Shown: in pieces, positions 4,553-35,090 of the stretch
How the letters are laid out: each line of letters begins with the position of its first letter
How positions within the stretch are numbered: position 1 is the first letter of the stretch
Origin: Patescibacteria group bacterium
GTDB taxonomy: Bacteria; Patescibacteriota; Minisyncoccia; Moranbacterales; UBA1568
Reading direction: 5' to 3'
Assembly (NCBI GenBank): GCA_038062975.1
Contig: JBBTWC010000008.1
Coordinates: forward strand, 1 to 45,153
Length of the DNA stretch: 45,153 bases
Notes under the pieces: model-generated
What the model was told of the DNA's origin: nothing
Database searches by the model: none
The model's input: the letters and a program-made list of their open reading frames with translations, nothing else
Made by a program: the position numbers and the translations under genes

Positions 4553-4926
4553 CCTTTCTAGAACAGATTGGACTACTGCGCTTGAGCTTTACGCTTAGGT
4601 GAGGAAAGTCCGGACATTTGGACTCCAATAAAGGAGTCGTTGGTAGCGGGTAACGCCCGTCGTGAGTGATCACAGAGGTGCGAGCAGAGACGCCTTTTTG
4701 CGAAAGCAAAGGGCATCCAAGGCGCAAGTTTTGGATGAGCTCTTGTAGTAATACGAGAGGTGAAACGGCTAAATCCTTACCTGAATGCAAGGACGTGCCT
4801 GTCTCTTCTTGGAGCTCAAGAAGAGCTGGGAGTGCCGCAAAGATCCTTCTGGCAACAGAAGGGCAAGATAAATGGTAGTCGCCCGCAAGGGTACAGAATC
4901 CGGCTTATAGATCTGTTCTAGAAAGG
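4553..4926 (+). ncRNA. rnpB: RNase P RNA, bacterial type A
   Basis: Universal P4 strands GAGGAAAGTCCGGAC (4601-4615) and ACAGAATCCGGCTTATAG (4893-4910). GGTAACGCC element present. A perfect 16-bp terminal P1 pairing joins CCTTTCTAGAACAGAT (4553-4568) to ATCTGTTCTAGAAAGG (4911-4926). Confidence 0.9.
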
Positions 4927-13275: not shown

Positions 13276-14166
13276 ATGCAGAGACTGCAAACATGTAAAT
13301 TGTGTTTTTCTTCATCCCTCATGACCTTAAAAAGGTATGAGGCAAAGACTGATACGAATAGTGACTGGAAGCATGTCTTTGAGACGGCTCTACAAGGAAA
13401 ATCGGTTATTTCTATCGATCTTGCACTTTGTCTTTCATGTGGCTTTGTCTTTTATCGTGATGTTCTGGATGAGAACGAATTGGAGCGTTTGTATGCCAAG
13501 GAAAATCGATACGAAAAGCATGAGGTGAGCGCAACGAAGCGAGGGAGAATTTGGGAATTGCAGAATATGAGCGCTTTTTTAGAGCGGTATACGAAGAATC
13601 AGGCTATTAAGGATATCCTAGACATTGGGGCAGGGGATTTTGTTGCTCTTGAGAAGATTTCTGCGCTTGTGCCACAGGCCTCAATTGAGGCGATAGATCC
13701 TTCTTATGCAAGTGATTCGCATAAGGGGATAAAAGTGTATCGAGTCATGTTGCAGGATTTTCAGCCGTACAAGCAGTATGATTTAGTGATGGCTATCCAT
13801 GTACTCGAGCACGTGGGAGATCTGAAGATCTTTTTGGAGAAATTACGGGGGCTCTCAAAGAAATTTGCTTATATTGAGATTCCTTTCCAGGTTGGTCCGG
13901 GTCTCTTTTTGAGTCGCAGTGTCAATGCGCAACATATCAATTACTTTACTCCAAAAACTATTACGCTTTTACTGGAGAAATATGGTTTTTCTGTAGAAGC
14001 TTTAGAGTTTAGTTCGGATGCTTATCGTTATAATGGTATGCCTGGTATGATTCGTATCTTTGCTCAAGTTACAAAAGAACAGAAAGGGGTTCGCGGGAAT
14101 GGTCTTCTTTCGAGTTTGTATTTTCTTCTCAGTCCGCTCATTCTTTTACGGAGCAAATTCTTTTAA
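13276..14166 (+). CDS. Class I SAM-dependent methyltransferase with N-terminal Cys4 zinc-ribbon-like motif
   Basis: CKLC...CLSCGFVFY is followed by motif I ILDIGAGDF and post-I/II elements (DLVMAIHVLEHV). Confidence 0.8.
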   Translation: MQRLQTCKLCFSSSLMTLKRYEAKTDTNSDWKHVFETALQGKSVISIDLALCLSCGFVFYRDVLDENELERLYAKENRYEKHEVSATKRGRIWELQNMSAFLERYTKNQAIKDILDIGAGDFVALEKISALVPQASIEAIDPSYASDSHKGIKVYRVMLQDFQPYKQYDLVMAIHVLEHVGDLKIFLEKLRGLSKKFAYIEIPFQVGPGLFLSRSVNAQHINYFTPKTITLLLEKYGFSVEALEFSSDAYRYNGMPGMIRIFAQVTKEQKGVRGNGLLSSLYFLLSPLILLRSKFF

Positions 14167-14175
14167 TACCTTTCT

Positions 14176-15432
14176 ATGCGAGATATATCCGAAAGGAACC
14201 TTATCGCCTGGCTTGGTCAAAAGGTTGGGTTCGATGCAGAATATTTCTTTAAGAATGGTTTTTGGGTAACGCTTCGATATATTTTTATTACTGGTCTCGG
14301 GATTTCTCTTTCGGTGGCATTCGCACGTCTTGCGTCTAAAGAGCTCTATGGGCAGTATCAATTTATTATCGCCTTTATCGCCTTTTTTTCTTTTCTTTCT
14401 CTGCCAGGCCTTAATGTTGTTACGTTGCGGGAGGCGGTTCATGGAAACATGTCTGCGCTCCGGCAAGCAGTGCAAAAGAGTTTTTTCTGGGGAATAGGTA
14501 TTTCTGTCATCAGTGTGTTGTACGGTGCATACCTCGTGCTCACAGGGGGTCCTCATCTCGGATTCGCTCTTATGGCAGGAGGAGTTATCGCGCCATTTTT
14601 TTATGCTCCAAATAATTGGTACGTCTTTTACGAAGGCAGATTAGATTTCCGATCTTCCACGGTGCGCATCATCATTACACAGATTCTCCTGTTCCTTTTT
14701 ATGTTTGCCGGGCTTTTCTTTCATCTGTCGATACTTTTTTTGGTGGTCTTTTACTTTGCTATTCAGGCATTTCTAAACATATATTTTTACACCGAAGTAT
14801 CCAAACAGATAGAAAAGGTTTCGACTCAAGTGTTGGATATGCGCTTTGCTCTCCTTGCGACTTTTCAAAAGTTTTCTTGGTCACTTTCTGAGAGTCTTCA
14901 GATTTTTATTATCGCCTTCCTCTATGGATTTGAAATGTTAGCTGTTTTTCAGGTAGCCTATCTTTTGATAGCGGCATTTTCTGGGTTTGTTGGAGCATTT
15001 TCTTCTTTATATTTCCCGTTGATTATGAAGAAGGAGCGCGTATTAGTTGGAAAAAGTCTTTTTCATAATCTCTTGCTCGGAATTCTTGGGGCTTTTGCCT
15101 ATATATTGTTTTTGAAGCTCTTTTTTCTCTTCTTTTATGGAGAAGCGTATCAGCAGAGCCTGCAATTAGCGTATAGTTTCTCTTTACTTGTTGTTTTTAT
15201 TCCTCTCCGGCTCTATATCATAAACTTTTTTACAGCACACAAAGAAAATGTAGCTGTCATTGTGGCAAATATCTTTTCCAATAGCATAGCCCTCTTTGCC
15301 TTTTTTGGTTTCAAAGATTTTGGATTCGAGATAAGCGTCTTGGCGTATATGTACACGCTTCACTTTTCGCTCCTCTTTTTTCTCGGAATAGTGTATATTG
15401 CTCCTCTCTTGAAGAAGAGAATAATGCTTTAA
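14176..15432 (+). CDS. Wzx-like oligosaccharide flippase (MOP superfamily polysaccharide biosynthesis protein)
   Basis: 418 aa with about 12 predicted TM helices. The N-terminus resembles the polysaccharide biosynthesis protein family. It sits inside a glycan cluster. Confidence 0.65.
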   Translation: MRDISERNLIAWLGQKVGFDAEYFFKNGFWVTLRYIFITGLGISLSVAFARLASKELYGQYQFIIAFIAFFSFLSLPGLNVVTLREAVHGNMSALRQAVQKSFFWGIGISVISVLYGAYLVLTGGPHLGFALMAGGVIAPFFYAPNNWYVFYEGRLDFRSSTVRIIITQILLFLFMFAGLFFHLSILFLVVFYFAIQAFLNIYFYTEVSKQIEKVSTQVLDMRFALLATFQKFSWSLSESLQIFIIAFLYGFEMLAVFQVAYLLIAAFSGFVGAFSSLYFPLIMKKERVLVGKSLFHNLLLGILGAFAYILFLKLFFLFFYGEAYQQSLQLAYSFSLLVVFIPLRLYIINFFTAHKENVAVIVANIFSNSIALFAFFGFKDFGFEISVLAYMYTLHFSLLFFLGIVYIAPLLKKRIML

Positions 15433-15512: not shown

Positions 15513-16442
15513 ATGGAAAAACCTCAGGATTTCGAAACGATCCCTTGTCCTTTATGTACCGCAACGACCTTTGACGTTATTTACCCCGGGAGTTTTCCAG
15601 CAGAAATCTCTCAAGAATTTTTGACTGAGATCTATCGCTCCTCGAGTGATCAGACGCTCTTTGAGCAGGTGGTGCGATGCAGAGAGTGTCATTTAGTGTA
15701 CCTTAATCCTCGTCTTAATCCAGACCTGATTATTAACTCGTATGCAGAAGGAGAGGACAAAGCGTTTATTGAGCAGGATTCTATGCGAATTCGTACCTTT
15801 AAGACTGCGCTCAAAGATCTAGCGAAGCGGCATCAACTGGTTCTTTCTGGGAAAACAAAGGTGCTTGATATTGGTTGTGCTGGAGGCGCTTTTTTGCGCG
15901 CTGCTCGCGATCTTCGTTTGACTGTTACTGGTATTGAGCCCAGTAGATGGCTTGGTGAGTATGCGCGTACGAAACACGGTCTTGATGTGCGTAGTGGTAC
16001 CTTGAGTGATTATACGTTCCCAGAGGCAAGTTTCGATTTGGTAACGCTTTGGGATGTTATTGAGCATATACCAAACCCAAAAATAGAACTTCAGCACATT
16101 CACCGCCTTCTTGCGCCTCAGGGGCTTCTGGTTGTGAATTATCCGGATTTTGGGAGTCTCGTGGCAAAGTTCCTTGGGAAAAAGTGGCCTTTTCTCCTGA
16201 GTGTTCATTTAATTTACTACACCCCAGAAACTATCAGGAAACAGCTTGAAGAAAGTGGCTTCAAGATTATACGTCTTTGTATGCACTGGCAAACACTCGA
16301 ACTCGGGTACATCTTAAGGCGCATAGCTCAAACGTTTCCATTTGTTCGTTTTATTGCCACGCTAGTAGAAAAGGCTGGTCTCGGTCGCATACCAATAGTG
16401 TATTGGATGGGGCAGACGAAAGTAGTTGCAAAGAAATGTTAG
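15513..16442 (+). CDS. Class I SAM-dependent methyltransferase with N-terminal Cys4 zinc-ribbon-like motif
   Basis: CPLC...CRECHLVYLNP, then motif I VLDIGCAGGAF and DLVTLWDVIEHI. Confidence 0.85.
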   Translation: MEKPQDFETIPCPLCTATTFDVIYPGSFPAEISQEFLTEIYRSSSDQTLFEQVVRCRECHLVYLNPRLNPDLIINSYAEGEDKAFIEQDSMRIRTFKTALKDLAKRHQLVLSGKTKVLDIGCAGGAFLRAARDLRLTVTGIEPSRWLGEYARTKHGLDVRSGTLSDYTFPEASFDLVTLWDVIEHIPNPKIELQHIHRLLAPQGLLVVNYPDFGSLVAKFLGKKWPFLLSVHLIYYTPETIRKQLEESGFKIIRLCMHWQTLELGYILRRIAQTFPFVRFIATLVEKAGLGRIPIVYWMGQTKVVAKKC

Positions 16443-17098
16443 GGGAATTTTCAAAGATTCAGGGACTTGTTTTTGACATGGATGGAGTGTTGTTTTTATC
16501 AACTGATTGTCATGAGCAGGCATTTCGAGAAACGCTTCTCGAAGTCGGTATTGAAGATCTTACTTATGCGACTATCGCAGGAATGCGTACGGATGAGGCC
16601 TTTCGGAAGATTTTTTCTGATCGAGAAAAAGTTCTTTCCGAAGATGCCCTGAAAAATCTGGTTGCTAAAAAAAGAGAAAGGGCATTAGGGCTTTTAATGG
16701 AAAAAGGACAGATTGCTCCTGGAAGTTCAGAGCTTATTTCTCGGCTTCGTCAAAAATATCGACTCGCTTTGGCTTCATCGGCATCTCCACAAACCGTAGC
16801 CTTATTTTTAGAGAAGAGTGGTTATGCGGACGCTTTCGAGGTTATTCTTGATGGTTCTTTCGTTCAGCGCGCCAAACCAGATCCAGAGATATATCAGCAG
16901 GCTCTCGTCCGTCTTAGACTCACACCAGAGCAGGCTTTGGTTATTGAGGACGCGGAAAGTGGGGTTCGGGCAGCTCAGAGTGCCGGAATGTCTGTCATTG
17001 CTGTTCTTGGGAATAATGCAAAAGAGACCTTTTTACAGGTAAAGCCGACTATGGTAGTATCTAGTTTAATAGATATCGGGCCAATCTTGTTGTCTTAG
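16436..17098 (+). CDS. HAD-IA hydrolase (beta-phosphoglucomutase/phosphatase family)
   Basis: DMDGVLF motif I, SSAS motif II and KPDPEIY...EDAESGVRAA motifs III/IV. I take the start at the ATG at 16436, which overlaps the upstream stop. The track ORF from 16277 is an implausible extension through the preceding gene. Confidence 0.85.
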   Translation: MLGEFSKIQGLVFDMDGVLFLSTDCHEQAFRETLLEVGIEDLTYATIAGMRTDEAFRKIFSDREKVLSEDALKNLVAKKRERALGLLMEKGQIAPGSSELISRLRQKYRLALASSASPQTVALFLEKSGYADAFEVILDGSFVQRAKPDPEIYQQALVRLRLTPEQALVIEDAESGVRAAQSAGMSVIAVLGNNAKETFLQVKPTMVVSSLIDIGPILLS

Positions 17099-17107
17099 GC
17101 GCAGTAT

Positions 17108-17917
17108 ATGAAGATATTTACCCGAGGGGAAATCCAAGATTTATTTACAAAAGCAGCTGATCCGGCTCTTTGGACGGTGGTTATTCCTGTTGCCGGTAAG
17201 GGGACTCGTCTTGGTTACGATAAGCCAAAGATTCTGTATCCAATCGCTGGGCGGACCATTCTGGATCGTCTTGTCAGTCTTTTGGAGCCTTATTGTGGAC
17301 GGTTTATCTTCGTCTTTTCTCCAGAAAATGCGCTTCACGTTACACCACTTCTTGAGGAGGACGCGCGTATAGCCGGGCGTTTTGAGGCGCCTATTATCGT
17401 TGGTTCGCGCGGTATGGCTGATTCTATTTCTCAAGCCCTACCTCTTATTGATACCCCATATACTCTTATTATTTGGGGAGACCAAGTAGCTATCAGTAAG
17501 GAGACAATTGAGTCAGTTATGCGACTGCACCAATTTTCTCAGGGAGCAAAATTAACGCTCCCTCTTTTTCAGCGAGAAAACCCGTATGTTCATTATGAAG
17601 TAGATGAGAATGGCCTGCTTGTTCGTGTGCTTCAGAAGCGAGAAGGGGATACCATGCCTGCTCTCGGAGAAAGTGATGCGGGTCTTTTTGCCGTAGAGAC
17701 ACAGCGTTTGAAAGAGGTGTACGAACAAGTTGTACGAGACGGTTTTGTTCCTGGAAATGAGACAGGGGAGTGGAATTTTCTCCCGATGCTTCCTCTTTTT
17801 GTAACCACAAAAGAAGATATGAATGGGTACCGTTTGGATTCCTTTGAAGAAACAGTTGGTGTGAATGATAGTAATGATGCTCGTTTACTCGAAGCCTATT
17901 TTCATAAATGTACATGA
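17108..17917 (+). CDS. Sugar-phosphate (or phospho-acid) nucleotidyltransferase, GT-A-like NTP_transferase fold
   Basis: N-terminal VIPVAGKGTRLGYDKPKILYPIAG signature (GxGTRL plus K). Substrate not assignable. Confidence 0.75.
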   Translation: MKIFTRGEIQDLFTKAADPALWTVVIPVAGKGTRLGYDKPKILYPIAGRTILDRLVSLLEPYCGRFIFVFSPENALHVTPLLEEDARIAGRFEAPIIVGSRGMADSISQALPLIDTPYTLIIWGDQVAISKETIESVMRLHQFSQGAKLTLPLFQRENPYVHYEVDENGLLVRVLQKREGDTMPALGESDAGLFAVETQRLKEVYEQVVRDGFVPGNETGEWNFLPMLPLFVTTKEDMNGYRLDSFEETVGVNDSNDARLLEAYFHKCT

Positions 17918-19983
17918 GTATGAAAAAAGCTGGATCACTTCTTAAGGTAGTTATGTTTTCAGGAGGAAGGGGGACAGGAGCTCTTACAGAAGCTCTCCTT
18001 CGCTATCCAGACATCGAACTCACACTCTTAGTGAATGCGTACGATGACGGTCTTTCAACGGGTCTTTTGCGTCGGTTTATTCCTGGCATGCTTGGTCCGT
18101 CTGATATACGGAAAAACGTTTCTCGTTTCATTCAACAACGAAATGATCCGGCGTCTCAAGCGTTATTATTTTTGATTGAGTATCGTTTTCCTGAAGCCAC
18201 AGAAGTAGAGAGTGCGCTTACGACGATGCGTGACTTTATTCATTTCAGTGGAACAGGGGAGAAGAATGAAGTTTTGGAGGCGAGAGAGAAATTATCTTTG
18301 CAACAAGTGAGGATAGCGAGTCGTTATCTCGAGGCCTTTTTGCAATATTACGAGAAGCACATTCCTCATTTCCAGGAGTTTCCTTTTGCTGACTGTTCTT
18401 TGGGAAATCTTCTGTTTGCTGGTTGTTACTTAGTGAATGAACAGGACTTTAATCGCACGATTGCCGACTTTTCACAGTTTACGGAAATTGGAGATCGAGT
18501 GTTGAATGTGACTCAGGGCGAGAATAGGGTTTTAGTAGCTATGAAACACGACGGGCAGTATCTTCATGATGAAGCGAGCATAGTTGGTCCACAGGATGCT
18601 TCGCGTATTGATGAAATCTTTCTCTTGCCTCAGTATTTGAATTCAGCAACAGAGGCTATGGGTCAGTACAAGATTGATAATATTCGCTTTCTTCGGAATA
18701 AGGAGATGTTGCCTACTATCAGCTCTTCTGCTGATCAGGCATTACGGGAAGCAGATATTATTATTTATGGACCAGGTACTCAGTACTCTTCACTCTTTCC
18801 GTCGTACTTAACGAGTGGAGTTGCTGAGGCTATTCAGGCGAATACCCAGGCAGAAAAGGTCTTTATTGGGAATATAGCCAGAGATTACGACATTCTTGGT
18901 GAGGATGCCACCACGCTTGTCAGAGCCTTCCTCTGGAATATGAGTCGTAAGGTGGGAGGGTCAGTAGATTGTCACAATCTCGTTACTCGTTTTTTCTTTC
19001 AAAAACCAGAAACAAACACTGCAGGAGAAACCCCGTATGTGCCTTTTAATGCAGAGGAATTTGAATATCCACTTGAAAAAGTAACCTGGATTGATTTGGA
19101 AGGTGAAAAGGGAAAGCATTCGGGAAGTCGCACGGTTTCAGAGCTTCTGCTTATTGTGGAAAATCAACTCCATAAGCGAGTGAAGCATGTATCACAAAAA
19201 GTCTCTATCATTGTCCCAGCGCTTAATGAAGAGCGTACGATTAAGCAGGTTCTGCGTGAGCTCACACATCTCCAGTTTCCTGGCATGGGTCTTGAAAAAG
19301 AAATTATTGTCGTAGACGGTGGCTCCCGAGATAAAACATACGAAATTGCGAGCAAGGAGTCTTTTGTACGAGTGTATAAGAACGAAGGTCATCGTGGCCG
19401 TGGTATGGCACTGCGTCTTGGTATCGAAAAGGCAAAGGGGGATATCATAGTCTTTTTCCCATCAGATAGTGAATATACTGTCAGCGACATCGTACGCGTA
19501 GTTTCTCCGCTTGTGAATCAGGAATTTCCTGCCGTGTTTGGGAGCCGAGCTTTTCGACGTACACATGATTTAAATGGAACGTTGAAGCGGGTCTATGGAA
19601 ATAAAAATTTCCTCTTTCTGGTAAGTAAATACGGAGGTATGCTCTTAAGTGTCATGACACTTCTTTTGTATCAGCGTTTCATAAGTGATCCGTTGACGAG
19701 TCTCAAGGGTTTCAATGCTCGTATTTTCCGGACCATGAATTTCTCGAGTTATGGAGTTGATTTTGATATGGAACTGATAGCAAAGATTGCTCGCGAAGAG
19801 CATGTTATCCTAGAGATACCAGTCAGCTATACAGCGCGCACTGTTCAGGAAGGAAAAAAGATTACCCTGAAAGACGGTATTGCCTGTTTGATTGCACTAA
19901 TGCGCTTCTCTACATGGAAGCCAAAGAATAAACTTGTAGAAACAAAATATGCTAAAGGTGTCAATCGTTATTCCGGCGTATAA
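17908..19983 (+). CDS. Fusion protein: N-terminal YvcK/CofD-like (UPF0052) domain plus C-terminal GT2 glycosyltransferase domain
   Basis: The N-terminal domain has VVMFSGGRGTGAL, NAYDDGLSTGLLRRF..GPSDIRKN and IIIYGPGTQYSSLFPSYL. The C-terminal domain, from about nt 19198, has VSIIVPALNEE...IIVVDGGSRDKT...EGKKITLKDG. Confidence 0.8.
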   Translation: MYMSMKKAGSLLKVVMFSGGRGTGALTEALLRYPDIELTLLVNAYDDGLSTGLLRRFIPGMLGPSDIRKNVSRFIQQRNDPASQALLFLIEYRFPEATEVESALTTMRDFIHFSGTGEKNEVLEAREKLSLQQVRIASRYLEAFLQYYEKHIPHFQEFPFADCSLGNLLFAGCYLVNEQDFNRTIADFSQFTEIGDRVLNVTQGENRVLVAMKHDGQYLHDEASIVGPQDASRIDEIFLLPQYLNSATEAMGQYKIDNIRFLRNKEMLPTISSSADQALREADIIIYGPGTQYSSLFPSYLTSGVAEAIQANTQAEKVFIGNIARDYDILGEDATTLVRAFLWNMSRKVGGSVDCHNLVTRFFFQKPETNTAGETPYVPFNAEEFEYPLEKVTWIDLEGEKGKHSGSRTVSELLLIVENQLHKRVKHVSQKVSIIVPALNEERTIKQVLRELTHLQFPGMGLEKEIIVVDGGSRDKTYEIASKESFVRVYKNEGHRGRGMALRLGIEKAKGDIIVFFPSDSEYTVSDIVRVVSPLVNQEFPAVFGSRAFRRTHDLNGTLKRVYGNKNFLFLVSKYGGMLLSVMTLLLYQRFISDPLTSLKGFNARIFRTMNFSSYGVDFDMELIAKIAREEHVILEIPVSYTARTVQEGKKITLKDGIACLIALMRFSTWKPKNKLVETKYAKGVNRYSGV

Positions 19984-20680
19984 TGAAGAAGCTTTTATTG
20001 GAGCTCTTTTGGAAATAATTTTGAAGATCGATCTTTCTCCTATTGGTTTTGAACGAGAGATCATTGTGGTTGACAATGGATCGGAGGATAAGACCTTTGA
20101 GATAGCGTCTGCCTTCCCAGGGGTTCGTTGTTTGCGTATCGAGAAGAATAGAGGGAAGGGGGAAGGGACAAAATATGGTATTTCCCAAGCAACGGGAGAC
20201 TATATACTCATTCAAGATGCTGATCTTGAATATGATCCACAGGACTACATCCCTCTTCTCTCTCCTCTTCGTGAAGTAGATCGCCCAACAGCGATATATG
20301 GGAGTAGAATCAAAGGAGAGGAACGCCAAGGGTTCTTTCGGGGAAAACATCCAGAGAAGTCTGTCGCTATCTGGGTAGCGAATGAGCTTCTGACTTTTTG
20401 GGTGTGGCTTCTTTTTGGTAAGTATATTACAGATACGCTTACGGGATATAAAGTGTATCCCCGTGCTCTGCTACAGAAATTCACTATAGAGACAAAAGGG
20501 TTCGAGACAGATCACGAACTTACCGCCAAGCTTATTCGTTCCGGGGTGTTGATTCAGGAGGTTCCTATCCGGTATTACCCGCGGAGTGTAGAAGAAGGAA
20601 AGAAGATTCGAGCAGCTGATTTTTTTATTGCCGTATGGACATTTCTCAAATATCGTTTCGTAACACAGGGAAAATTCTAG
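19949..20680 (+). CDS. GT2 glycosyltransferase, DPM1/GtrB-like catalytic domain without TM anchor
   Basis: VSIVIPAYNEE, VVDNGSEDKT and DADLEYDP (DxD). It is a clear paralogue of the C-terminal domain of the preceding fusion protein and overlaps it by 35 nt. Confidence 0.9.
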   Translation: MLKVSIVIPAYNEEAFIGALLEIILKIDLSPIGFEREIIVVDNGSEDKTFEIASAFPGVRCLRIEKNRGKGEGTKYGISQATGDYILIQDADLEYDPQDYIPLLSPLREVDRPTAIYGSRIKGEERQGFFRGKHPEKSVAIWVANELLTFWVWLLFGKYITDTLTGYKVYPRALLQKFTIETKGFETDHELTAKLIRSGVLIQEVPIRYYPRSVEEGKKIRAADFFIAVWTFLKYRFVTQGKF

Positions 20681-21099
20681 CGAAGCTAGAAGCTTTTTAT
20701 GTATCACTGCCTCTCTCGTGGCAGCGTTTTTTGAAGTTCGGTATTACCGGAGGTTCTGCTTTGGCGATTGATGTTGCGATTTATTATGTATTGACACGGT
20801 ATGGGCATGTTCCGTATTTGCTCAGTAGAACCATTTCGTTAGGCGTTGCTATTTTCTGGAACTTTTCCCTGAATCGTCATTGGACGTTTCGCGCTACTTT
20901 AGGAAAGGTGCAACAGCAGTTTCCACGCTTTCTTGCTGTTATTGTTATGACTTCTCTTTTAAATCTTCTGTTAATGAAGATCGGTGTATCGTATCTCCAT
21001 CTTCATGATCTTTTGGTGATATTTCTTGTTTCTGCTCTCATAACATTTATAAACTTTTTTGCTCACTATTTTTGGAGTTATGCTGAAAAAGCTCAATAA
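20635..21099 (+). CDS. GtrA-family small membrane protein
   Basis: FLKFGITGGSALAIDVAIYYVL...NFSLNRHWTF, with four TM helices. The exact start is uncertain, since the track ORF overlaps the upstream GT2 by 46 nt. Confidence 0.8.
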   Translation: MDISQISFRNTGKILAKLEAFYVSLPLSWQRFLKFGITGGSALAIDVAIYYVLTRYGHVPYLLSRTISLGVAIFWNFSLNRHWTFRATLGKVQQQFPRFLAVIVMTSLLNLLLMKIGVSYLHLHDLLVIFLVSALITFINFFAHYFWSYAEKAQ

Positions 21100-22768
21100 T
21101 ATTTTACAAAGAATATCGTGGCCCCAAGTCTTCATTTTGGGAATGCTTTTATTTTTTGAAATAAGTATCCACCCTCTTGGTTTTGGGCCTGATCGTCGAA
21201 TTCATGATCCCGCCGTGTATCGTCTTGCTGATCCCGTTTATATGTCGGGTGATTGGTATACAAAAATGGCTACCGAGAGTGGTGTATACACCTTTTATGC
21301 CGATCTGGTGAATCTTGGTCCCACACTCGGGATCCCAGAGGAGGGATGGCGACTTGGATGGTATATCGTGAGTCTTGTCGCGACCTACGTTGCTTTACTG
21401 GCTTTGGCGCGTCTTTTTTTCAAAAGCCCTCTTGTTGTACCGCTTATAGCGGGTTTACATGCAGCACTCATAATAAGCGCTCCTCCTATTTGGCTCTACG
21501 GACCATTTCTGCAGATTGACGGAGGTTTAGCGCCTCGTTCTATCGGTATGGCGCTCTCTTTTGTTGCTCTCTATTTCCTCATTAAAAATAGAAGGTTTCT
21601 TCCTTGGATTCTTTTGGGCGTTGCTACGCTGGTGCACGTCTCTAATTCGCTCATTGTTTTTTCCCTTTTCTTTGTTGCTTGGTTGCTGTACGAGGGGTTT
21701 GTACGGTTTAGGATGAAAGAGCCTCATTGGAACAAGTTTATTCAACAGGGACTCATAACAGTAGGTGTGTACATTGTTTCGGGTGGATGGTTCGCTCTTT
21801 TTATCGCTACTCTTGGAGCTGGGCAAGAGACAACTTTTTCTGATGTGAAATTTATTTGGACATGGATATATCTTCGCGCCCCGTATATGGCACTTCCTCT
21901 TATGCCATGGCGTTCTTGGGTTTTATTTGCTCTTCATTGTATTGCGCTGGTATCGTGTTGGTATCTTTTGTGGAAGTCACGGAGAATTGAACACGAGGAG
22001 CGACTTCATTTGATAGGGCTCATTGGAGTAGGGGGTATAGTGTATTTTTTCGCTTTTTATTTTTTCGCTTTTATTTGGCCATGGTTGCCAGCTTTTCAAT
22101 TTTATTCTATTCGGGTTATCTATCTGACGTATTGTATTGCCTATCTTTTTATCGCCCTGTCAGTCGTTGTTGTCTATCAAAGATTACTTGAAAAAAGTGG
22201 ACGCTTCCGCTACGGAAAGCTTGCTCAACACGCTCTCACGACGGTTCTTTTCTTCTTTTTTTTCTTTGGAGTACTTTTGTTTACGCGTCCGGGCGAGGTT
22301 TTCCGAGAACGTGCACCAAAAAACCTCATGGCTACGTGGGAATATTCTCATGAAATGCGCATGCCGGATTCCTCTTCGCCAACCGTGCAGTATCTGAGTG
22401 CTCATCCAGAGCCATTTTTAGCTCCAATACACTGGTTTGGTTCACCAAAGTATTTACCGCATGTTGCGAGTTTTAAGACGTTTGGTTTTACGAAGCCAGG
22501 ACTTGAAGAATGGTTTCGACGTATGAACGATTTGAGTCGAGGTGAGCTTCAGAGTGAATACAAAAAGCAACTACAAGAAGGAAAGTTTCATCCGGTAGTA
22601 ATAGACTGGACGGCGTATTATATGAGTCTTACGCCAGCCGAGGTTGAGAAGCTTGGAGAAGAATATGATTTTGAGCTGTTTCTTACATACCAGTCGCTCG
22701 TGTACCCTTTTGAAGTAGTCGCAGAAGATGGAGACTACCGTCTCTATCGTATTCACACAAAAGAATAG
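21059..22768 (+). CDS. Large polytopic membrane protein with C-terminal soluble domain (GT-C-like transferase or polymerase candidate)
   Basis: 569 aa with more than 10 TM helices. The first loop carries an acidic/His motif (GFGPDRRIHDP). The C-terminal ~150 aa are non-membrane. An alternative ATG at 21080 is preceded by GGAG. Confidence 0.55.
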   Translation: MLTIFGVMLKKLNNILQRISWPQVFILGMLLFFEISIHPLGFGPDRRIHDPAVYRLADPVYMSGDWYTKMATESGVYTFYADLVNLGPTLGIPEEGWRLGWYIVSLVATYVALLALARLFFKSPLVVPLIAGLHAALIISAPPIWLYGPFLQIDGGLAPRSIGMALSFVALYFLIKNRRFLPWILLGVATLVHVSNSLIVFSLFFVAWLLYEGFVRFRMKEPHWNKFIQQGLITVGVYIVSGGWFALFIATLGAGQETTFSDVKFIWTWIYLRAPYMALPLMPWRSWVLFALHCIALVSCWYLLWKSRRIEHEERLHLIGLIGVGGIVYFFAFYFFAFIWPWLPAFQFYSIRVIYLTYCIAYLFIALSVVVVYQRLLEKSGRFRYGKLAQHALTTVLFFFFFFGVLLFTRPGEVFRERAPKNLMATWEYSHEMRMPDSSSPTVQYLSAHPEPFLAPIHWFGSPKYLPHVASFKTFGFTKPGLEEWFRRMNDLSRGELQSEYKKQLQEGKFHPVVIDWTAYYMSLTPAEVEKLGEEYDFELFLTYQSLVYPFEVVAEDGDYRLYRIHTKE

Positions 22769-22779
22769 AAAGCGTACAT

Positions 22780-23985
22780 TTACGATGCAGCTTCAGTAAA
22801 AGCAGTTTCGATTTTTTGAGAAATGAGAGATTCGCGAAATTTCTTTTGATAGAGTTCAAGAGAATTCTTTGAATACTTTTCAAGGAGACTTGGATCAGTT
22901 AAGAACTGCTGAAGAGAGGCAAAAAGAAATTCCTCTACTGGAGCCATAGCTCCCTTTTCTTCAAGAGAAAAAAGGGTTTCGTAGAATGTCTTTGCATTAT
23001 AGAGCTTTCCGTACATTTCCTTTGTTGTAGGATCGTAATCAAGAAGGGGGTGATTTTTGAAAACAAAGGCATTGTAATTCTCAAGAGCCATTTCGGTTGT
23101 AGCGTATTGGTCTGTTGCGATAAGGGGCATACCAAATGAAAGGGCTTCAATCAGTACAAGTCCGAACGTATCGCGGAATGTGGGAAAAATAAAGACATCA
23201 TGGGTTCGATAGAGATTTTCCATTTCCTCTGCGCTAAACGCCGCATCGAGCAGAGTGATCTTTGGAAGAGACAAGATATGCTCTTTGTCTTCTGGGAGAA
23301 GCATGTGCAGGGGAGTGACGATTGTCAGGGAGGCATCTGGATATACTTTTGAGATTTTTTCAAAAGCGTTTACAGCTTCTCGTCCTCCCTTTACATAGTA
23401 AATTCCCGTAAAGAGAAATTTTATAGAGGAAGAGAATTTTTTCGGTTCAACCTGTTTTGGGTCTTTCACGAAAGGGTATATCTGAACGGACTTTTTTCGG
23501 AGAACCTTCTCAGTTGATTGAGAAAACTTCCCAGTAGCAATCAGGCTTGTAAGGGCGGTCTCGCTCATAAAAATGAGTTTTTTACACTGCGGGAGGCGAA
23601 TAAGAAAAGCGAACCAGCATTTCGCAAGAAAGTTTCTCAGGATGAAGGGATCATAATTAAAAAGGGCGGCGCCATTTTCAACGTACACACAGTAGGGCTT
23701 GTTGGTGATAAGGAGACATCCGTAGGTAAAGAGGAGGTCGTGATTTTTTATAAATTTTATGCGGACATTCAAAATTCCTAACAGACGTCTGAGTCTATTT
23801 TGAAAACCAAGTTTTGAACGAGAGAACTCCTCACGAGGAGTCGACATGCTTTTTTTGTAGAAATCTTTTGTTTTGGCGTAGCGGTTTGAATACACAACAA
23901 ACTGGAACTTTGAAGTAGCCTTTCCAAAATCAAGTATATGTTTGCGGAGGTACGGTTGAAAGAGAAGAATCGTTTTTTGACGCAT
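22780..23985 (-). CDS. GT4 (GT-B fold) glycosyltransferase
   Basis: C-terminal Glycos_transf_1 signature FIFPTFRDTFGLVLIEALSFGMPLIATD. Confidence 0.85.
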   Translation of the reverse strand: MRQKTILLFQPYLRKHILDFGKATSKFQFVVYSNRYAKTKDFYKKSMSTPREEFSRSKLGFQNRLRRLLGILNVRIKFIKNHDLLFTYGCLLITNKPYCVYVENGAALFNYDPFILRNFLAKCWFAFLIRLPQCKKLIFMSETALTSLIATGKFSQSTEKVLRKKSVQIYPFVKDPKQVEPKKFSSSIKFLFTGIYYVKGGREAVNAFEKISKVYPDASLTIVTPLHMLLPEDKEHILSLPKITLLDAAFSAEEMENLYRTHDVFIFPTFRDTFGLVLIEALSFGMPLIATDQYATTEMALENYNAFVFKNHPLLDYDPTTKEMYGKLYNAKTFYETLFSLEEKGAMAPVEEFLFASLQQFLTDPSLLEKYSKNSLELYQKKFRESLISQKIETAFTEAAS

Positions 23986-23987
23986 AA

Positions 23988-24626
23988 CTATTTCTTTTCC
24001 AAGAGAATCCAGTAGCTTTGAGCAGCGATATCAACGTTGAAAATCTTTACAAAAGTACGTACCAAGAATCCTTTCCAGCTAGAACTGTAGTTACAGTGGA
24101 GGAAGCGACGGGAAATCTGTACTGAATGGACATGAGCATAGTGCTGGAAAAAGCGTTCGAGTTCTCTGTGACTAAAGAACCAACGGTGCCGATCATCTGG
24201 CTTTTCGAATGGTAACCCATAAAACTTGCCTGTTTTTCCACGAAAGAAGATGTTAAAACGAGTAAAGATGTCGACACAATTTGGGAGAGAAATAAGAACA
24301 TAGCGATTGGAAACCCGGAAGAGTTCATCAACCATTTCGTGAAGATTTTCCAAGTGTTCAAGCACTTCTGTGCTGACAACAAAATCAAATTGTCGGTCAG
24401 CAAAGCGGGAAAGTTTTTCTTTTTCTAGATCAATCTTAATATCGGGATCGCCGTAGAGGTCTACGCCGGTTACTTTTTCCCCGACGATTTTTTTGAATGT
24501 ATTGTAGTCACAACCGACATCGAGAGCTGATTGCGACTCGGCAATTTCTTTTTCAAAAGTTTTTGCAATGAAAGCAGCACGACCTTCTCGGTTATTGAAA
24601 TATTCGTATCGTTTTGGGAGGGGCAT
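23988..24626 (-). CDS. Class I SAM-dependent methyltransferase
   Basis: Motif I ALDVGCDYN, plus FDFVVSTEVLEHL. Confidence 0.8.
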   Translation of the reverse strand: MPLPKRYEYFNNREGRAAFIAKTFEKEIAESQSALDVGCDYNTFKKIVGEKVTGVDLYGDPDIKIDLEKEKLSRFADRQFDFVVSTEVLEHLENLHEMVDELFRVSNRYVLISLPNCVDIFTRFNIFFRGKTGKFYGLPFEKPDDRHRWFFSHRELERFFQHYAHVHSVQISRRFLHCNYSSSWKGFLVRTFVKIFNVDIAAQSYWILLEKK

Positions 24627-24660
24627 ATTCTTTTGATCTCAGGATAAATCCTGGATGTGT

Positions 24661-25656
24661 TTATTGGATAACGTTTGCGTACCTTTCGAGCATCTGTTTG
24701 AGAGAAAATTTTTCTTCGGCAATTCTTCGACTTTCTTCCGAGTAGGCTTTTTGGTTTTTAGTTATCTGTGCCAAATTATCAGCAAAGAGGCCAAGATTCA
24801 GAGCGCGTTTTTTCCAGAAACCTGTACCCTTGGTCTCTAGAAGAAGGCCATTTTTTCCAGTCTGGACGAGTTCGGCCATAGCTCCGTCATCAACACCGCA
24901 GATAGGGAGGCCGCAGGCCATTGCTTCGAGGATGTTATTGGGGCAAGGTGGGTTGAGATGAGTAAACAAAAAAACGTCAGCGCCTCGCTCGTACGCTGGT
25001 AAGTCCTTATTGTCTATTTTACCAAGAAATTCGACTTGTTTGAAATGGCTCCATTTTTGAGGGAGAGAGGCTACTTTTTTGGAAAAGGTGCCCGCTACCA
25101 GGCATTTGAAGTTATCTCCGTATTTCTTTTGGTATATTTTGAGTGCTTGGAGTAGAGGAAGTATTTGATCAGCACGCCGGAAAGCAGAGGCAGTAAAGAA
25201 AATACGTTGCTCTTTGTTATCGCGAAGAGTTCGTGTGTCCCCGAGTGGCGAAAAAAGAGAAAGGTCAACCCCATTGTAAATGAGCGCTGAGCGATCGTGC
25301 TGTTTCTTTCCGAGGAACACTTCTGAACAAAATTGACTGTAGGCACTTTGGTAAATAGTAAAATCGGCAAACCAATGACGGATAATCTGAGCTTTCAGAT
25401 TATAGAGAGGGAACTTCCACCCAGCCACTGTCCAATACCATGTGCCGTCAAGCCTTTGAATAATTTTCTTTTTTCTTTTTTTTGCATCCAAGAGATACCG
25501 AAACGGTGCTTGGACAATTGTGAGAAGAACATCGTAGTCAGGACGATACTCAAAGAAGACTTCATGACCGAGAGACTCCATTCCCTCTTTAAATTTAAGC
25601 GCAAAAGTTGCTGTGCCTCCAATACCTTTGACTGTGAAGGGGAGAAAGATTTTCAT
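24661..25656 (-). CDS. GT4 (GT-B fold) glycosyltransferase
   Basis: FLFTHLNPPCPNNILEAMACGLPICGVDDGAMAELV, the E-x7-E region of Glycos_transf_1. Confidence 0.85.
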   Translation of the reverse strand: MKIFLPFTVKGIGGTATFALKFKEGMESLGHEVFFEYRPDYDVLLTIVQAPFRYLLDAKKRKKKIIQRLDGTWYWTVAGWKFPLYNLKAQIIRHWFADFTIYQSAYSQFCSEVFLGKKQHDRSALIYNGVDLSLFSPLGDTRTLRDNKEQRIFFTASAFRRADQILPLLQALKIYQKKYGDNFKCLVAGTFSKKVASLPQKWSHFKQVEFLGKIDNKDLPAYERGADVFLFTHLNPPCPNNILEAMACGLPICGVDDGAMAELVQTGKNGLLLETKGTGFWKKRALNLGLFADNLAQITKNQKAYSEESRRIAEEKFSLKQMLERYANVIQ

Positions 25657-25659
25657 ACT

Positions 25660-27317: not shown

Positions 27318-27325
27318 AAGGAAAT

Positions 27326-29522: not shown

Positions 29523-29558
29523 AATGGGTAAAAAGGGATTATTCTCTCCATTATACTG

Positions 29559-31448: not shown

Positions 31449-31452
31449 ATCT

Positions 31453-32607: not shown

Positions 32608-32610
32608 AAG

Positions 32611-35080: not shown

Positions 35081-35090
35081 AAGTAAAAAA

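What the first reader, a model, noticed from the sequence alone, without database searches (positions are those of the whole stretch)
16436..22768. HAD / nucleotidyltransferase / YvcK-CofD-like::GT2 fusion / GT2 / GtrA / polytopic protein: candidate uncharacterised glycan-decoration system
Six co-directional genes abut or overlap: 16436 overlaps the preceding stop, and there are overlaps at 17908-17917, 19949-19983, 20635-20680 and 21059-21099. The 691-aa protein joins a UPF0052 domain to a GT2 domain. The UPF0052 signatures are SGGRGTGAL, DDGLSTGLLRRF..GPSDIRKN and YGPGTQYSSLFPSYL, as in YvcK and the F420 enzyme CofD/FbiA. Established chemistry for that superfamily has two parts. CofC/FbiD, a nucleotidyltransferase, makes an NDP-activated phospho-acid. 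CofD then transfers the phospho-moiety to a hydroxyl, releasing NMP. YvcK binds UDP-sugars. Here a GxGTRL nucleotidyltransferase and a DxDG HAD phosphatase or mutase lie directly upstream. A GtrB-like GT2, GtrA and a large polytopic protein, the classic three-component lipid-carrier glycosylation layout, lie directly downstream. My inference is a pathway that activates a phospho-sugar or phospho-acid and attaches it, possibly as a phosphodiester, to a lipid-linked or surface glycan. I do not know of a characterised YvcK/CofD-GT2 fusion, but I cannot verify novelty without a search.
Basis: partly seen in the sequence, partly recalled or inferred. Interest (0 to 1): 0.75.

Follow-up and report, generated by a model that had tools for sequence, protein, structure and literature searches.

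The report
Uncharacterised YvcK-like–glycosyltransferase sugar-decoration cassette
A tightly packed gene set in a Moranbacteria-like genome, built around a protein that joins a YvcK/CofD-family domain to a lipid-carrier glycosyltransferase, belongs to a conserved and apparently unstudied cassette found in many bacterial phyla that most likely makes a modified lipid-linked sugar for decorating the cell surface.

Summary
All six ORFs, their domains and the quoted motifs are present. The 691-aa PF01933::PF00535 fusion is not an artefact: the search returned 1,261 relatives, all 120 listed carry both domains, and 248 GTDB species encode one.

The conserved unit differs from the one proposed. Across 85 loci from many phyla the core is HAD, nucleotidyltransferase (NT), YvcK-like::GT2 and a paralogous GT2. 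GtrA and the 562-aa polytopic protein are specific to the Patescibacteria clade. I show that protein has a GT-C fold. Other lineages carry YfhO, PMT_2 or another polytopic protein instead. Natural fusions link every domain: MT::HAD, HAD::NT, NT::YvcK::GT2 and HAD::NT::YvcK::GT2.

The N-domain is YvcK/GlmR-like rather than CofD-like.

Best reading: a cytoplasmic assembly line makes an NDP-sugar and loads it on polyprenyl phosphate. The YvcK-like domain adds a further step, possibly phospho-sugar transfer. The product is then flipped and transferred by a GT-C enzyme. That chemistry is inferred, not shown.

I found no characterised member. I rate it a new variant of a known kind, of moderate to high interest.

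The parts
15513..16442 (+). SAM-dependent methyltransferase (309 aa) with an N-terminal four-Cys zinc ribbon.
   Evidence: Methyltransf_23 1.2e-27. The nearest solved structures are the NDP-sugar 3-C-methyltransferases KijD1 and TcaB9, with the alignment starting in the Zn-ribbon region (1.6e-9). A homologue is present in 43 of 85 loci, usually directly upstream of the HAD gene, and is fused to HAD in two of them.
16436..17098 (+). HAD-IA hydrolase (220 aa) of the beta-phosphoglucomutase / sugar-phosphate phosphatase type.
   Evidence: HAD_2 6e-28. The best NCBIfam model is the beta-PGM family, at 117 bits, below its cut-off of 153. PDB neighbours are the TM1254 sugar phosphatase, CbbY and beta-PGM. 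It is present in 67 of 85 loci and fused to the NT in 11.
17108..17917 (+). Nucleotidyltransferase (269 aa), resembling the N-terminal domain of GlmU.
   Evidence: NTP_transf_3 1.8e-13. It matches the GlmU N-terminal domain over aa 23-266 (1e-16) and GlmU structures (4.5e-14). It is present in 79 of 85 loci and fused to the YvcK-like::GT2 protein in 14. The split from the next gene in the window is natural, because L021 is also split while L008 is fused.
17908..19182 (+). YvcK/GlmR-like (PF01933, UPF0052) domain of the 691-aa fusion, aa 1-425. Compared with YvcK it carries a helical insertion of about 60 aa and a conserved linker.
   Evidence: PF01933 3.5e-30. Foldseek gives YvcK structures at TM 0.76-0.80, normalised to the target. 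A profile of the domain hits only YvcK structures. D46, D47 and N322 are invariant and sit in the motifs that hold the GlmR catalytic residues D40, D41 and N198 (PMC10128056). The DDG match is seen in the printed alignment; the N322-N198 match is my inference. The helical insertion (helices at aa 100-154) is seen in the model.
19183..19983 (+). GT2 domain of the fusion (GT2f, aa 426-691), of the DPMS/ArnC/GtrB type, with a variant metal motif PSDSEY.
   Evidence: PF00535 7e-22. Structural neighbours are ArnC, DPMS and GpgS. The segment at aa 568-588 is hydrophobic (Kyte-Doolittle 1.75). P518, D520 and E522 are invariant.
19949..20680 (+). Second GT2 (GT2b, 243 aa), a paralogue of GT2f with the canonical DAD motif.
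   Evidence: PF00535 1.7e-27. It is 35% identical to GT2f (E=1e-44). The best PDB match is dolichyl-phosphate mannose synthase 5mlz (4e-15). The segment at aa 138-157 is hydrophobic. It is present in 76 of 85 loci.
20635..21099 (+). GtrA-family small membrane protein (up to 154 aa). It is a putative flippase or a membrane partner of the GT2s.
   Evidence: PF04138 8.4e-23. It has about three to four hydrophobic segments. Homologues occur only in the 15 loci of the window's own clade.
21080..22768 (+). Polytopic membrane protein with a GT-C fold (562 aa from ATG 21080; the ORF opens at TTG 21059). It is the putative extracytoplasmic transferase.
   Evidence: It has no Pfam or NCBIfam match. The family holds only 70 proteins, many on contigs of the same length as fusion-bearing contigs. 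The AF2 model has pLDDT 88 and pTM 0.89. The top eleven Foldseek matches are all GT-C enzymes, namely AglB, STT3, ArnT, ALG12, EmbB and ALG9, at probability 0.99-1.0 and TM about 0.33-0.42. An invariant GPDRxxHDP motif follows the first helix.

Best explanation
This is a dedicated cassette that builds a modified, polyprenyl-phosphate-linked sugar on the cytoplasmic face of the membrane. That sugar is then used to decorate a surface polymer or protein.

**Proposed order of steps**
1. The HAD enzyme supplies a sugar-1-phosphate, acting either as a beta-PGM-type mutase or as a trimming phosphatase.
2. The GlmU-like NT converts it to an NDP-sugar.
3. Where present, the zinc-ribbon methyltransferase methylates the nucleotide-linked sugar.
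4. The two paralogous DPMS/GtrB-type GT2s, probably acting as a hetero-oligomer on the membrane surface, load a sugar onto polyprenyl phosphate.
5. The YvcK/CofD-family domain fused to one GT2 takes the NT's NDP-sugar and performs a substitution at phosphorus. My preferred version is transfer of sugar-1-phosphate to a hydroxyl of the lipid-linked sugar with release of NMP. That would give a phosphodiester-bridged donor.
6. In this genome GtrA then flips the product, or anchors the GT2s.
7. The 562-aa GT-C protein transfers the product to its acceptor outside the membrane.

**What is shown:** domain identities, paralogy, conservation, the gene fusions, and the GT-C fold.

**What is inferred:** every substrate, the order of steps, and above all the reaction of the YvcK-like domain.

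**My probabilities:** about 0.7 for 'cassette that makes a lipid-linked sugar donor', and about 0.3 for phospho-sugar transfer specifically.
For: **Co-occurrence.** Among 85 non-duplicate loci from many lineages, the NT is present in 79, GT2b in 76 and HAD in 67. The lineages include Patescibacteria, Acidobacteriota, Planctomycetota, Bdellovibrionota, Magnetococcales, Margulisbacteria, Elusimicrobiota, Dependentiae and Myxococcota.

**Natural fusions tie all the domains together.** These are MT::HAD (2 loci), HAD::NT (11), NT::YvcK::GT2 (14) and one HAD::NT::YvcK::GT2 protein of 1,148 aa.

**The NT stays beside the YvcK-like gene even when that gene stands alone** (L088, L089). This fits sequential rather than redundant action, as with CofC then CofD (established F420 biochemistry, from my own knowledge).

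**Both GT2s look like polyprenyl-phosphate transferases.**
- Their best matches are polyprenyl-phosphate glycosyltransferases: AglJ, DPMS, ArnC, GtrB and PpgS.
- Each has one hydrophobic helix at the equivalent position.

**GT-C partners vary by lineage.** At least 38 of 85 loci hold a polytopic protein from one of four unrelated clusters. Three of them are GT-C-type by fold or Pfam: the window type, YfhO and PMT_2. The fourth, a 493-aa protein, has no Pfam match. That is what one expects of a portable donor-making module used by lineage-specific transferases.

**The YvcK-like domain looks catalytic.** Its putative catalytic residues are invariant.

**Context.** The window is a glycan locus of about 40 kb.
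Against: - No biochemical or genetic data exist for any member.
- The domain's nearest characterised relatives are YvcK/GlmR, not CofD. Their reported activity is UDP-sugar binding and GlcNAc-1-P uridylyltransfer (PMC5482804, PMC10128056). That favours a different reaction from the one I prefer.
- The role of HAD is not explained by the phosphodiester model.
- About half the loci, notably those with B12-radical-SAM genes, show no polytopic protein within 8 kb. The product may therefore not always be a GT-C donor.
- GT2f has lost the first Asp of the DXD motif, so it may not be a standard transferase.
- The inter-domain geometry of the model is uncertain (pTM 0.61), and I could not inspect coordinates.
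Confidence: 0.4

Rival explanations
1. The YvcK-like domain is a GlmR-type second nucleotidyltransferase. It makes the UDP-sugar used by the GT2 it is fused to, while the separate NT feeds the other GT2. The cassette would then produce two different polyprenyl-phosphate sugars.
For: - The domain matches only YvcK/GlmR structures.
- GlmR is reported to make UDP-GlcNAc from GlcNAc-1-P and UTP. That activity needs D40, D41 and N198 and D38/D39 in B. subtilis. The equivalent residues are invariant here.
- Two GT2s paired with two nucleotidyl-type enzymes is an economical pairing.
- Some Bryobacterales loci carry two YfhO paralogues.
Against: - The canonical NT is never dispensed with (79 of 85 loci, and beside the stand-alone versions).
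- It is fused directly to the YvcK-like domain in 14 loci, which fits sequential action better than parallel enzymes.
- Whether GlmR acts as a uridyltransferase in cells is questioned for S. aureus.
- The window's clade has a single dedicated GT-C partner.
Confidence: 0.22
2. The YvcK-like domain is a non-catalytic NDP-sugar sensor. It gates the fused GT2 so that surface decoration draws on the nucleotide-sugar pool only when that pool is full.
For: - B. subtilis YvcK/GlmR binds UDP-Glc and UDP-GlcNAc and acts as a regulator (PMC5482804, PMC7525490).
- In Listeria, loss of the wall-teichoic-acid GlcNAc decoration pathway suppresses glmR defects (abstract). This shows that such decoration pathways compete for UDP-GlcNAc.
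Against: - Conservation is very strong: 135 invariant columns across sequences 46-75% identical to the window protein, including the residues needed for GlmR catalysis.
- The domain is obligately linked, and sometimes fused, to a dedicated NT and HAD. That looks like a metabolic line rather than a sensor.
- The C-terminal part of YvcK, which holds the UDP-GlcNAc-binding R301, aligns poorly.
Confidence: 0.12
3. The YvcK-like domain modifies the NDP-sugar itself between the NT and the GT2, for example by ring contraction to a furanose or another isomerisation. The pathway would then be strictly linear, HAD to NT to YvcK-like to GT2, in the same order as the domains in the fusions.
For: - The domain order in the four-domain fusion matches this order.
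- In Mycoplasma fermentans, the locus for a beta-1,6-glucofuranan holds a GT2 synthase, an NDP-nucleotidyltransferase and a CofD-family gene. The enzyme that forms NDP-glucofuranose there is unknown (PMC11658790).
- Stand-alone relatives sit in similar GT2 + NT + CofD-family trios (L089).
Against: - The Mycoplasma CofD-family gene is described as split into two pseudogenes, yet the polymer is made.
- No member of the superfamily is known to isomerise sugars (my own knowledge).
- I could not test whether that gene belongs to this subfamily.
Confidence: 0.1
4. The cassette makes a soluble or membrane-lipid end product rather than a donor for surface glycosylation. One possibility is a GpgS/GpgP-style glycosyl-phospho-acid followed by dephosphorylation.
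For: - GpgS is among the better matches to GT2f (2.6e-16; TM up to 0.65).
- HAD phosphatases partner such synthases (my own knowledge).
- About half the loci lack a nearby polytopic protein.
Against: - Polyprenyl-phosphate transferases (AglJ, DPMS) score better than GpgS by sequence.
- Both GT2s carry a hydrophobic helix.
- GT-C partners and GtrA are adjacent in at least 38 loci.
- The window's cassette sits inside a surface-glycan locus.
Confidence: 0.08

Closest known systems
YvcK / GlmR (UPF0052; TIGR01826), the Firmicutes and Actinobacteria cell-envelope homeostasis protein
   Same: - Same fold (Foldseek TM 0.76-0.80 to 2hzb, 2o2z and 2ppv).
- It is the only PDB family hit by a profile of the domain.
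- The GGxGT, DDGxSTG, GPSDxRK, GN and GPG(T/S)xxSS motifs are shared, and the DD(+N) needed for GlmR activity is conserved.
- In both cases the ligand class is expected to be an NDP-sugar.
   Different: - It scores 94 bits against the family cut-off of 196.
- It carries a helical insertion of about 60 aa and a different C-terminal third.
- It is fused to a GT2.
- It sits with HAD, NT and GT2 genes rather than with yvcJ and whiA (that usual context is from my own knowledge).
CofC/CofD (FbiD/FbiA) of coenzyme F420 biosynthesis
   Same: - It falls in the same Pfam family, PF01933.
- A nucleotidyltransferase is an obligate neighbour. This mirrors the CofC-then-CofD logic, in which an NDP-activated phospho-compound is made and its phospho-moiety is then moved to an alcohol with NMP release (my own knowledge).
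   Different: - The domain profile finds no CofD structure at E<=1, and no CofD equivalog model appears among the NCBIfam hits.
- The NT is GlmU/IspD-like, not CofC-like.
- No genes for Fo or F420 synthesis appear in the window.
Three-component lipid-carrier glycosylation systems: GtrA/GtrB/GtrX, CsbB/GtcA/YfhO, GacI/GacJ/GacL, and PpgS/Rv3632/Rv3630
   Same: - A short DPMS-type GT2, a GtrA-family small membrane protein and a polytopic GT-C transferase lie in one operon.
- YfhO or PMT_2 proteins take the GT-C place in other lineages.
   Different: - There are two paralogous GT2s instead of one.
- One GT2 is fused to a YvcK-like domain.
- There is a dedicated HAD + NT (+MT) supply line.
- The GT-C protein belongs to a family with no Pfam model.
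ArnC/ArnD/ArnT (lipid A aminoarabinose) and the decaprenyl-phospho-ribose pathway
   Same: These are precedents for chemically altering a sugar after it has been loaded on polyprenyl phosphate and before a GT-C enzyme uses it (my own knowledge). ArnC is among the closest structures to GT2f.
   Different: The modifying enzymes there are a deformylase, a phosphatase and an epimerase. None belongs to the YvcK/CofD family.
Nucleotidyltransferase + phospho-group transferase pairs: LicC/LicD, TarI/TarL, TagD/TagF, ISPD/FKTN-FKRP
   Same: They show the logic proposed here. An NT makes NDP-X and a second enzyme moves X-phosphate to a glycan hydroxyl, releasing NMP (my own knowledge). The NT here also matches the IspD model (2.8e-9).
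   Different: The transferases in those pairs have unrelated folds. No YvcK/CofD-family enzyme is known to act on glycans.

Membership tests
CofD/FbiA (LPPG:Fo 2-phospho-L-lactate transferase) | Sequence membership: the CofD equivalog model, or similarity to solved CofD | tested here: not met
   Only the broad PF01933 model matches. No CofD equivalog appears among the NCBIfam hits. The domain profile finds no CofD structure at E<=1.
CofD/FbiA (LPPG:Fo 2-phospho-L-lactate transferase) | Genomic partnership with CofC/FbiD and with Fo/F420 genes (CofG/H, CofE) | tested here: not met
   The neighbouring NT is NTP_transf_3/GlmU-like, not CofC-like. No F420 genes appear among the window's annotated ORFs or in the sampled loci.
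YvcK/GlmR (TIGR01826) | Score above the curated family cut-off | tested here: not met
   93.9 bits against a cut-off of 196, matched in three pieces.
YvcK/GlmR (TIGR01826) | Fold and the catalytic DD + N residues | tested here: met
   TM 0.76-0.80 to YvcK structures. D46, D47 and N322 are invariant, against GlmR D40, D41 and N198.
YvcK/GlmR (TIGR01826) | UDP-sugar binding or uridylyltransferase activity | not testable with these tools
   This needs purified protein.
GAK-system CofD-like protein (TIGR04357) | Score above the curated cut-off | tested here: not met
   94.4 bits against a cut-off of 340.
Three-component lipid-carrier glycosylation (GtrA/GtrB/GT-C type) | A GT2 of the polyprenyl-phosphate glycosyltransferase type | tested here: met
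   By homology only. AglJ, DPMS, ArnC, GtrB and PpgS are the best matches for both GT2s, and each has a hydrophobic helix. All NCBIfam equivalog cut-offs are missed, so the sugar is unknown.
Three-component lipid-carrier glycosylation (GtrA/GtrB/GT-C type) | A GtrA-family small membrane protein in the operon | tested here: met
   PF04138 8.4e-23, above the cut-off. It is found only in the window's clade.
Three-component lipid-carrier glycosylation (GtrA/GtrB/GT-C type) | A polytopic GT-C transferase with an acidic motif in the first outer loop | tested here: met
   By fold. The top eleven Foldseek matches are GT-C enzymes at probability 0.99-1.0, although TM is only about 0.33-0.42. D38 and D43 are invariant in GPDRxxHDP after helix 1. 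Sequence models give no match.
Three-component lipid-carrier glycosylation (GtrA/GtrB/GT-C type) | A lipid-linked monosaccharide intermediate and transfer outside the membrane | not testable with these tools
   This needs lipid analysis and genetics.
Beta-phosphoglucomutase (TIGR01990 / TIGR02009) | Score above the curated cut-offs | tested here: not met
   108 bits against 189, and 117 against 153. Only the general HAD-IA models are passed.
GlmU | Bifunctional architecture with a C-terminal acetyltransferase domain, and the equivalog score | tested here: not met
   Only the N-terminal uridylyltransferase domain is matched (aa 23-266). The score is 61 bits against a cut-off of 367, and the protein is 269 aa.

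The most novel reading that the evidence does not exclude
The YvcK/CofD-family domain is a new kind of glycan-building enzyme. It would be a phospho-sugar (or other phospho-group) transferase that acts on a polyprenyl-phosphate-linked sugar held by its fused GT2 partner. The result would be a phosphodiester-bridged lipid-linked donor that a GT-C enzyme transfers as a block. If so, this would be the first biochemical role in glycoconjugate synthesis for the enigmatic YvcK branch of the superfamily. It would also offer a tractable handle on what that fold does with NDP-sugars.
Probability: 0.3. Interest if true: 0.8.

Novelty: new variant of a known kind. Interest (0 to 1): 0.6.

Why it matters
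**The YvcK/GlmR question.** YvcK/GlmR proteins matter for cell-envelope integrity and virulence in Gram-positive bacteria and mycobacteria. Their biochemical role is still debated: sensor, GlmS activator or uridyltransferase. Here a close structural relative is hard-wired by gene fusion between a sugar nucleotidyltransferase and a lipid-carrier glycosyltransferase, in many lineages. Natural fusions of this kind are strong evidence about which substrates the fold handles. They also provide a compact system to test.

**Possible new chemistry.** If the domain turns out to catalyse a new step, such as phospho-sugar transfer or NDP-sugar remodelling, that would add a reaction type to bacterial surface-glycan biosynthesis.

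**Surface biology of poorly known groups.** It would also help explain surface decoration in Patescibacteria, Acidobacteriota and predatory Bdellovibrionota.

**If it is ordinary.** If the domain is only a regulator or a redundant nucleotidyltransferase, the finding is an unusual variant of a familiar three-component glycosylation system.

Tried and rejected
- **Assembly or frameshift artefact for the fusion: rejected.**
  - The search returned over a thousand relatives, and all 120 listed have the same architecture.
  - The linker is conserved.
  - The NT/fusion junction occurs naturally in both split and fused forms in close relatives.
- **True CofD / F420 pathway: rejected** (no F420 genes).
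- **YvcK-like domain as the initiating phosphoglycosyl transferase of the locus: set aside.**
  - The window has a canonical Bac_transf enzyme at 4943-6373.
  - In other phyla the cassette sits in small operons with YfhO-type enzymes, which use monophosphate-linked donors (the donor type is from my own knowledge).
- **Soluble GpgS/GpgP-like pathway:** kept only as a weak rival (see rivals).
- **Literature:** three full-text searches found nothing on the fusion.
- **Inspecting the nucleotide pocket and the domain interface of the model:** not possible, because model coordinates are not exposed to the scripting tool.
- **Public annotation of the Bryobacterales F-183 plasmid copy:** the record is not in the plasmid collection.
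- **Locus L088, where the CofD-like gene stands alone:**
  - It seemed at first to show HAD::GT2 and MT::GT2 fusions parallel to the window's two GT2s.
  - Only the MT-fused GT2 is of the DPMS type, and its methyltransferase is unrelated to the window's.
  - I do not use it as a Rosetta-stone argument.
- **Read support across 19100-19200:** could not be checked, because no reads are available.

Full report
**1. The observation**

- HAD, 16436-17098
- Nucleotidyltransferase (NT), 17108-17917
- A 691-aa protein, 17908-19983
- A 243-aa GT2, 19949-20680
- GtrA, 20635-21099
- A polytopic protein, 21059-22768

Pfam confirms each assignment.
- HAD_2: 6e-28
- NTP_transf_3: 2e-13
- The 691-aa protein: PF01933 at 3.5e-30 (aa 14-336) and PF00535 at 7e-22 (aa 433-579)
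- The second GT2: PF00535 at 2e-27
- GtrA: PF04138 at 8e-23
- The polytopic protein: no match

No protein reaches the curated cut-off of any NCBIfam equivalog model. General subfamily models such as HAD-IA are passed. The precise functions are therefore not assigned by existing models.

Some overlaps depend on the choice of start codon. Identical database proteins begin at 17920 and 21080.

**2. The fusion is real and widespread**

A search of 5.8 billion proteins returned 1,261 relatives. All 120 listed carry PF01933 plus PF00535. Many are about 950 aa long and also carry the NT domain at the N-terminus.

An alignment of 22 full-length relatives, 46-75% identical to the window protein, has 135 invariant columns spread over both domains and the linker.

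An exhaustive search of 1.8 billion cluster representatives with the N-domain alone gave 320 clusters at E<=1e-30. Most are 640-700 aa long, which is the fusion length.

A scan of one genome per GTDB species found 248 species with a relative.
- MAGs labelled Patescibacteria and 'Bdellovibrionales'. These are the closest, at 64-72% identity.
- Many Bryobacterales and other Acidobacteriota.
- Magnetococcales, Margulisbacteria, Elusimicrobiota and Dependentiae.
- The cultured Bacteriovorax sp. BSW11_IV, Fluviispira multicolorata and Bryobacterales F-183.

The window itself is most likely from Candidatus Moranbacteria. Its RecJ is 63-72% identical to the listed relatives. Nearly all of those that carry an organism name are from Moranbacteria/Moraniibacteriota or other Patescibacteria.

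**3. What the conserved unit really is**

I called ORFs in the 85 non-duplicate fetched loci and searched them with the window's proteins.

| Component | Loci with a homologue (of 85) |
|---|---|
| NT | 79 |
| Second GT2 (GT2b) | 76 |
| HAD | 67 |
| Methyltransferase (window 15513-16442) | 43 |
| GtrA | 15 |
| Polytopic protein | 15 |

The methyltransferase gene lies directly upstream of the finding and overlaps the HAD start. GtrA and the polytopic protein occur only in the window's own clade.

The conserved core is therefore (MT)-HAD-NT-YvcK-like::GT2-GT2.

Natural fusions connect every piece.
- MT::HAD in 2 loci
- HAD::NT in 11 loci
- NT::YvcK-like::GT2 in 14 loci
- One 1,148-aa HAD::NT::YvcK-like::GT2 protein

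The window's separate NT and fusion genes are not an error. Close relatives exist in both the split form (L021) and the fused form (L008), and they differ only at the junction.

**4. The individual parts**

*NT.* It aligns over almost its whole length with the uridylyltransferase domain of GlmU. It carries the GxGTR(L/M) and (K)PK motifs of sugar-1-phosphate nucleotidyltransferases (read from the sequence; the motif assignment is from my own knowledge). Its likely product is therefore an NDP-sugar rather than an NDP-activated acid.

*HAD.* It is nearest to sugar-phosphate phosphatases and beta-phosphoglucomutase. Mutase and phosphatase roles cannot be told apart from sequence.

*Methyltransferase.* It has a four-Cys zinc ribbon. 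Its nearest solved relatives are the NDP-hexose 3-C-methyltransferases KijD1 and TcaB9. This suggests it acts on a nucleotide-linked sugar. It lacks their C-terminal domain.

*The two GT2s.* They are paralogues, 35% identical with E=1e-44.
- Both are closest to polyprenyl-phosphate glycosyltransferases: AglJ, DPMS, ArnC, GtrB and PpgS.
- Each has one hydrophobic helix at the same position. This fits monotopic membrane association.
- GT2b has the canonical DAD(LE) metal motif.
- GT2f has an invariant PSD(S)E, which keeps the second Asp and the Glu but loses the first Asp.

*Polytopic protein.*
- Its family has only 70 members and no Pfam model.
- It models with high confidence (pLDDT 88, pTM 0.89).
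- Its top eleven structural matches are all GT-C glycosyltransferases: AglB, STT3, ArnT, ALG12, EmbB and ALG9.
- An invariant GPDRxxHDP motif follows the first helix. GT-C enzymes keep their catalytic acidic residues at that position (my own knowledge).

**5. The N-domain is YvcK-like, not CofD-like**
- Sequence search finds the YvcK-family structures 2ppv, 2hzb and 2o2z.
- The AF2 model (pLDDT 82.7) superposes on them at TM 0.76-0.80.
- A profile built from ten N-domains hits only YvcK/GlmR-family structures (1e-26 to 1e-20) and no CofD at E<=1.
- Compared with YvcK it has a helical insertion of about 60 aa (helices at aa 100-154) and a divergent C-terminal third.
- Listeria GlmR needs D40, D41 and N198 for uridyltransferase activity, and B. 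subtilis GlmR needs D38/D39 (PMC10128056, PMC13046274). D46, D47 and N322 lie in the corresponding motifs here and are invariant.
- Whether GlmR acts as a uridyltransferase in cells is questioned for S. aureus.

**6. Context**

The cassette sits in a glycan locus of about 40 kb.
- A canonical initiating phosphoglycosyl transferase at 4943-6373
- Sugar dehydratases and epimerases
- A Wzx-type flippase
- Several GT4 and GT2 enzymes
- At least seven methyltransferases
- An asparagine-synthase-like amidotransferase
- UDP-glucose dehydrogenase
- Three more polytopic GT-C-like ORFs

In other phyla the core is joined by different polytopic proteins.
- YfhO in 8 loci
- PMT_2 in 8 loci
- An unannotated 493-aa membrane protein in 7 loci

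Together with the window type, this makes 38 of 85 loci.

Fourteen loci from Brocadiaceae, Magnetococcales, Bdellovibrionota and others instead carry B12-type radical SAM genes just upstream of the methyltransferase. Most of these have no polytopic protein within 8 kb.

Stand-alone versions of the YvcK-like gene still sit next to an NT and a GT2.

**7. Mechanism**

*Well supported.* The portable core paired with lineage-specific GT-C enzymes fits a module that makes a lipid-linked sugar donor on the cytoplasmic face. The product is then flipped and used outside the membrane, as in the GtrA/B/X, CsbB/GtcA/YfhO, GacI/J/L and PpgS systems (my own knowledge). I put this at about 0.7.

*Open.* The role of the YvcK-like domain is the open part. 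The family handles NDP-linked compounds and catalyses substitution at phosphorus. The NT is never dispensed with and is often fused to the domain, which points to sequential action on the NT's product.

I favour transfer of sugar-1-phosphate to the lipid-linked sugar with release of NMP, at about 0.3. This is the CofC-then-CofD logic, and also that of LicC/LicD and TarI/TarL.

The rivals are these.
- A GlmR-type second nucleotidyltransferase feeding the fused GT2 (0.22)
- An NDP-sugar sensor gating that GT2 (0.12)
- An NDP-sugar-remodelling step (0.1)
- A soluble, non-donor product (0.08)

The remodelling idea takes a hint from the Mycoplasma fermentans glucofuranan locus. That locus holds a GT2 synthase, an NT and a split CofD-family gene, and its NDP-glucofuranose-forming enzyme is unknown (PMC11658790).

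The pairing of two conserved GT2 paralogues, the variant metal motif of GT2f and the exact job of the HAD enzyme remain unexplained.

**8. Novelty and verdict**

Three full-text searches found no paper on this architecture. Source annotations are generic, for example 'CofD/UPF0052 family/glycosyltransferase'.

The overall logic is that of a known kind of system. The YvcK-like::GT2 core with its dedicated supply line is an uncharacterised variant. It is rare per genome (248 of about 186,000 species) but spans many phyla.

I rate it a new variant of a known kind, with interest 0.6.

Noticed in passing
window 4560-4923 (+): Bacterial RNase P RNA, class A (127 bits, E=1.4e-38). It lies between an HlyD-like gene and the initiating sugar transferase of the glycan locus.
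   Followed up: no
window 1297-3003 (+): The listed RecJ relatives are 63-72% identical to the window's. Nearly all of those that carry an organism name are from Candidatus Moranbacteria/Moraniibacteriota or other Patescibacteria. The closest fusion-bearing MAGs are nevertheless labelled 'uncultured Bdellovibrionales' in their records. That label is probably a taxonomic mislabel.
   Followed up: partly
window 4943-44121: The cassette sits in a glycan locus of about 40 kb. The locus holds a Bac_transf initiating enzyme (4943-6373), dehydratases and epimerases, a Wzx-type flippase (14176-15432) and several GT4 and GT2 enzymes. It also holds UDP-glucose dehydrogenase (38364-39671), an asparagine-synthase-like amidotransferase (29559-31448) and at least seven SAM methyltransferases.
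   Followed up: partly
window 8581-10032 (-), 32611-34806 (-), 41848-44121 (-): Three further polytopic ORFs are likely GT-C-type. The first matches DUF2142/PMT and has 10 hydrophobic segments. The second is 731 aa with no Pfam match and 12 segments. The third matches PMT_2 and has 15 segments. Nearby lie other short GT2s (35091-36516, 36689-37636) and an LPG_synthase_TM protein (40865-41851). These may form additional lipid-carrier glycosylation modules.
   Followed up: partly
window 13276-14166 (+): A second Methyltransf_23 protein (296 aa) also begins with paired Cys motifs (CKLC...CLSC). It looks like a zinc-ribbon paralogue of the cassette's methyltransferase.
   Followed up: no
L002 2949-6075, L036 3873-5528, L042 4117-5649, L044 12115-13710 and 10 other loci: In 14 loci from Brocadiaceae, Magnetococcales, Bdellovibrionota, Fluviispira and others, one or two B12-binding-type radical SAM genes sit directly upstream of the cassette's methyltransferase. 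Most of these loci have no polytopic protein nearby. This may be a chemically different sub-variant of the cassette.
   Followed up: partly
L088 6143-12248: This is a distant variant with the YvcK-like gene standing alone, flanked by an NT, a HAD::GT2 fusion and an MT::GT2 fusion. The GT2 in the HAD fusion is of a different type. The GT2 in the MT fusion is DPMS-like, but its MT is unrelated to the window's. A 698-aa membrane protein and a PMT_2 gene follow.
   Followed up: partly
window 17900-17925, compared with L008 and L021: Close relatives differ in whether the NT is fused to the YvcK-like::GT2 protein. The fused and split forms differ only by a few bases at the junction. The fusion has probably been gained or lost repeatedly.
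   Followed up: yes
whole window: GC skew is positive in every 2-kb window (0.05-0.27), including 22780-36516 where the genes lie on the minus strand.
   Followed up: no
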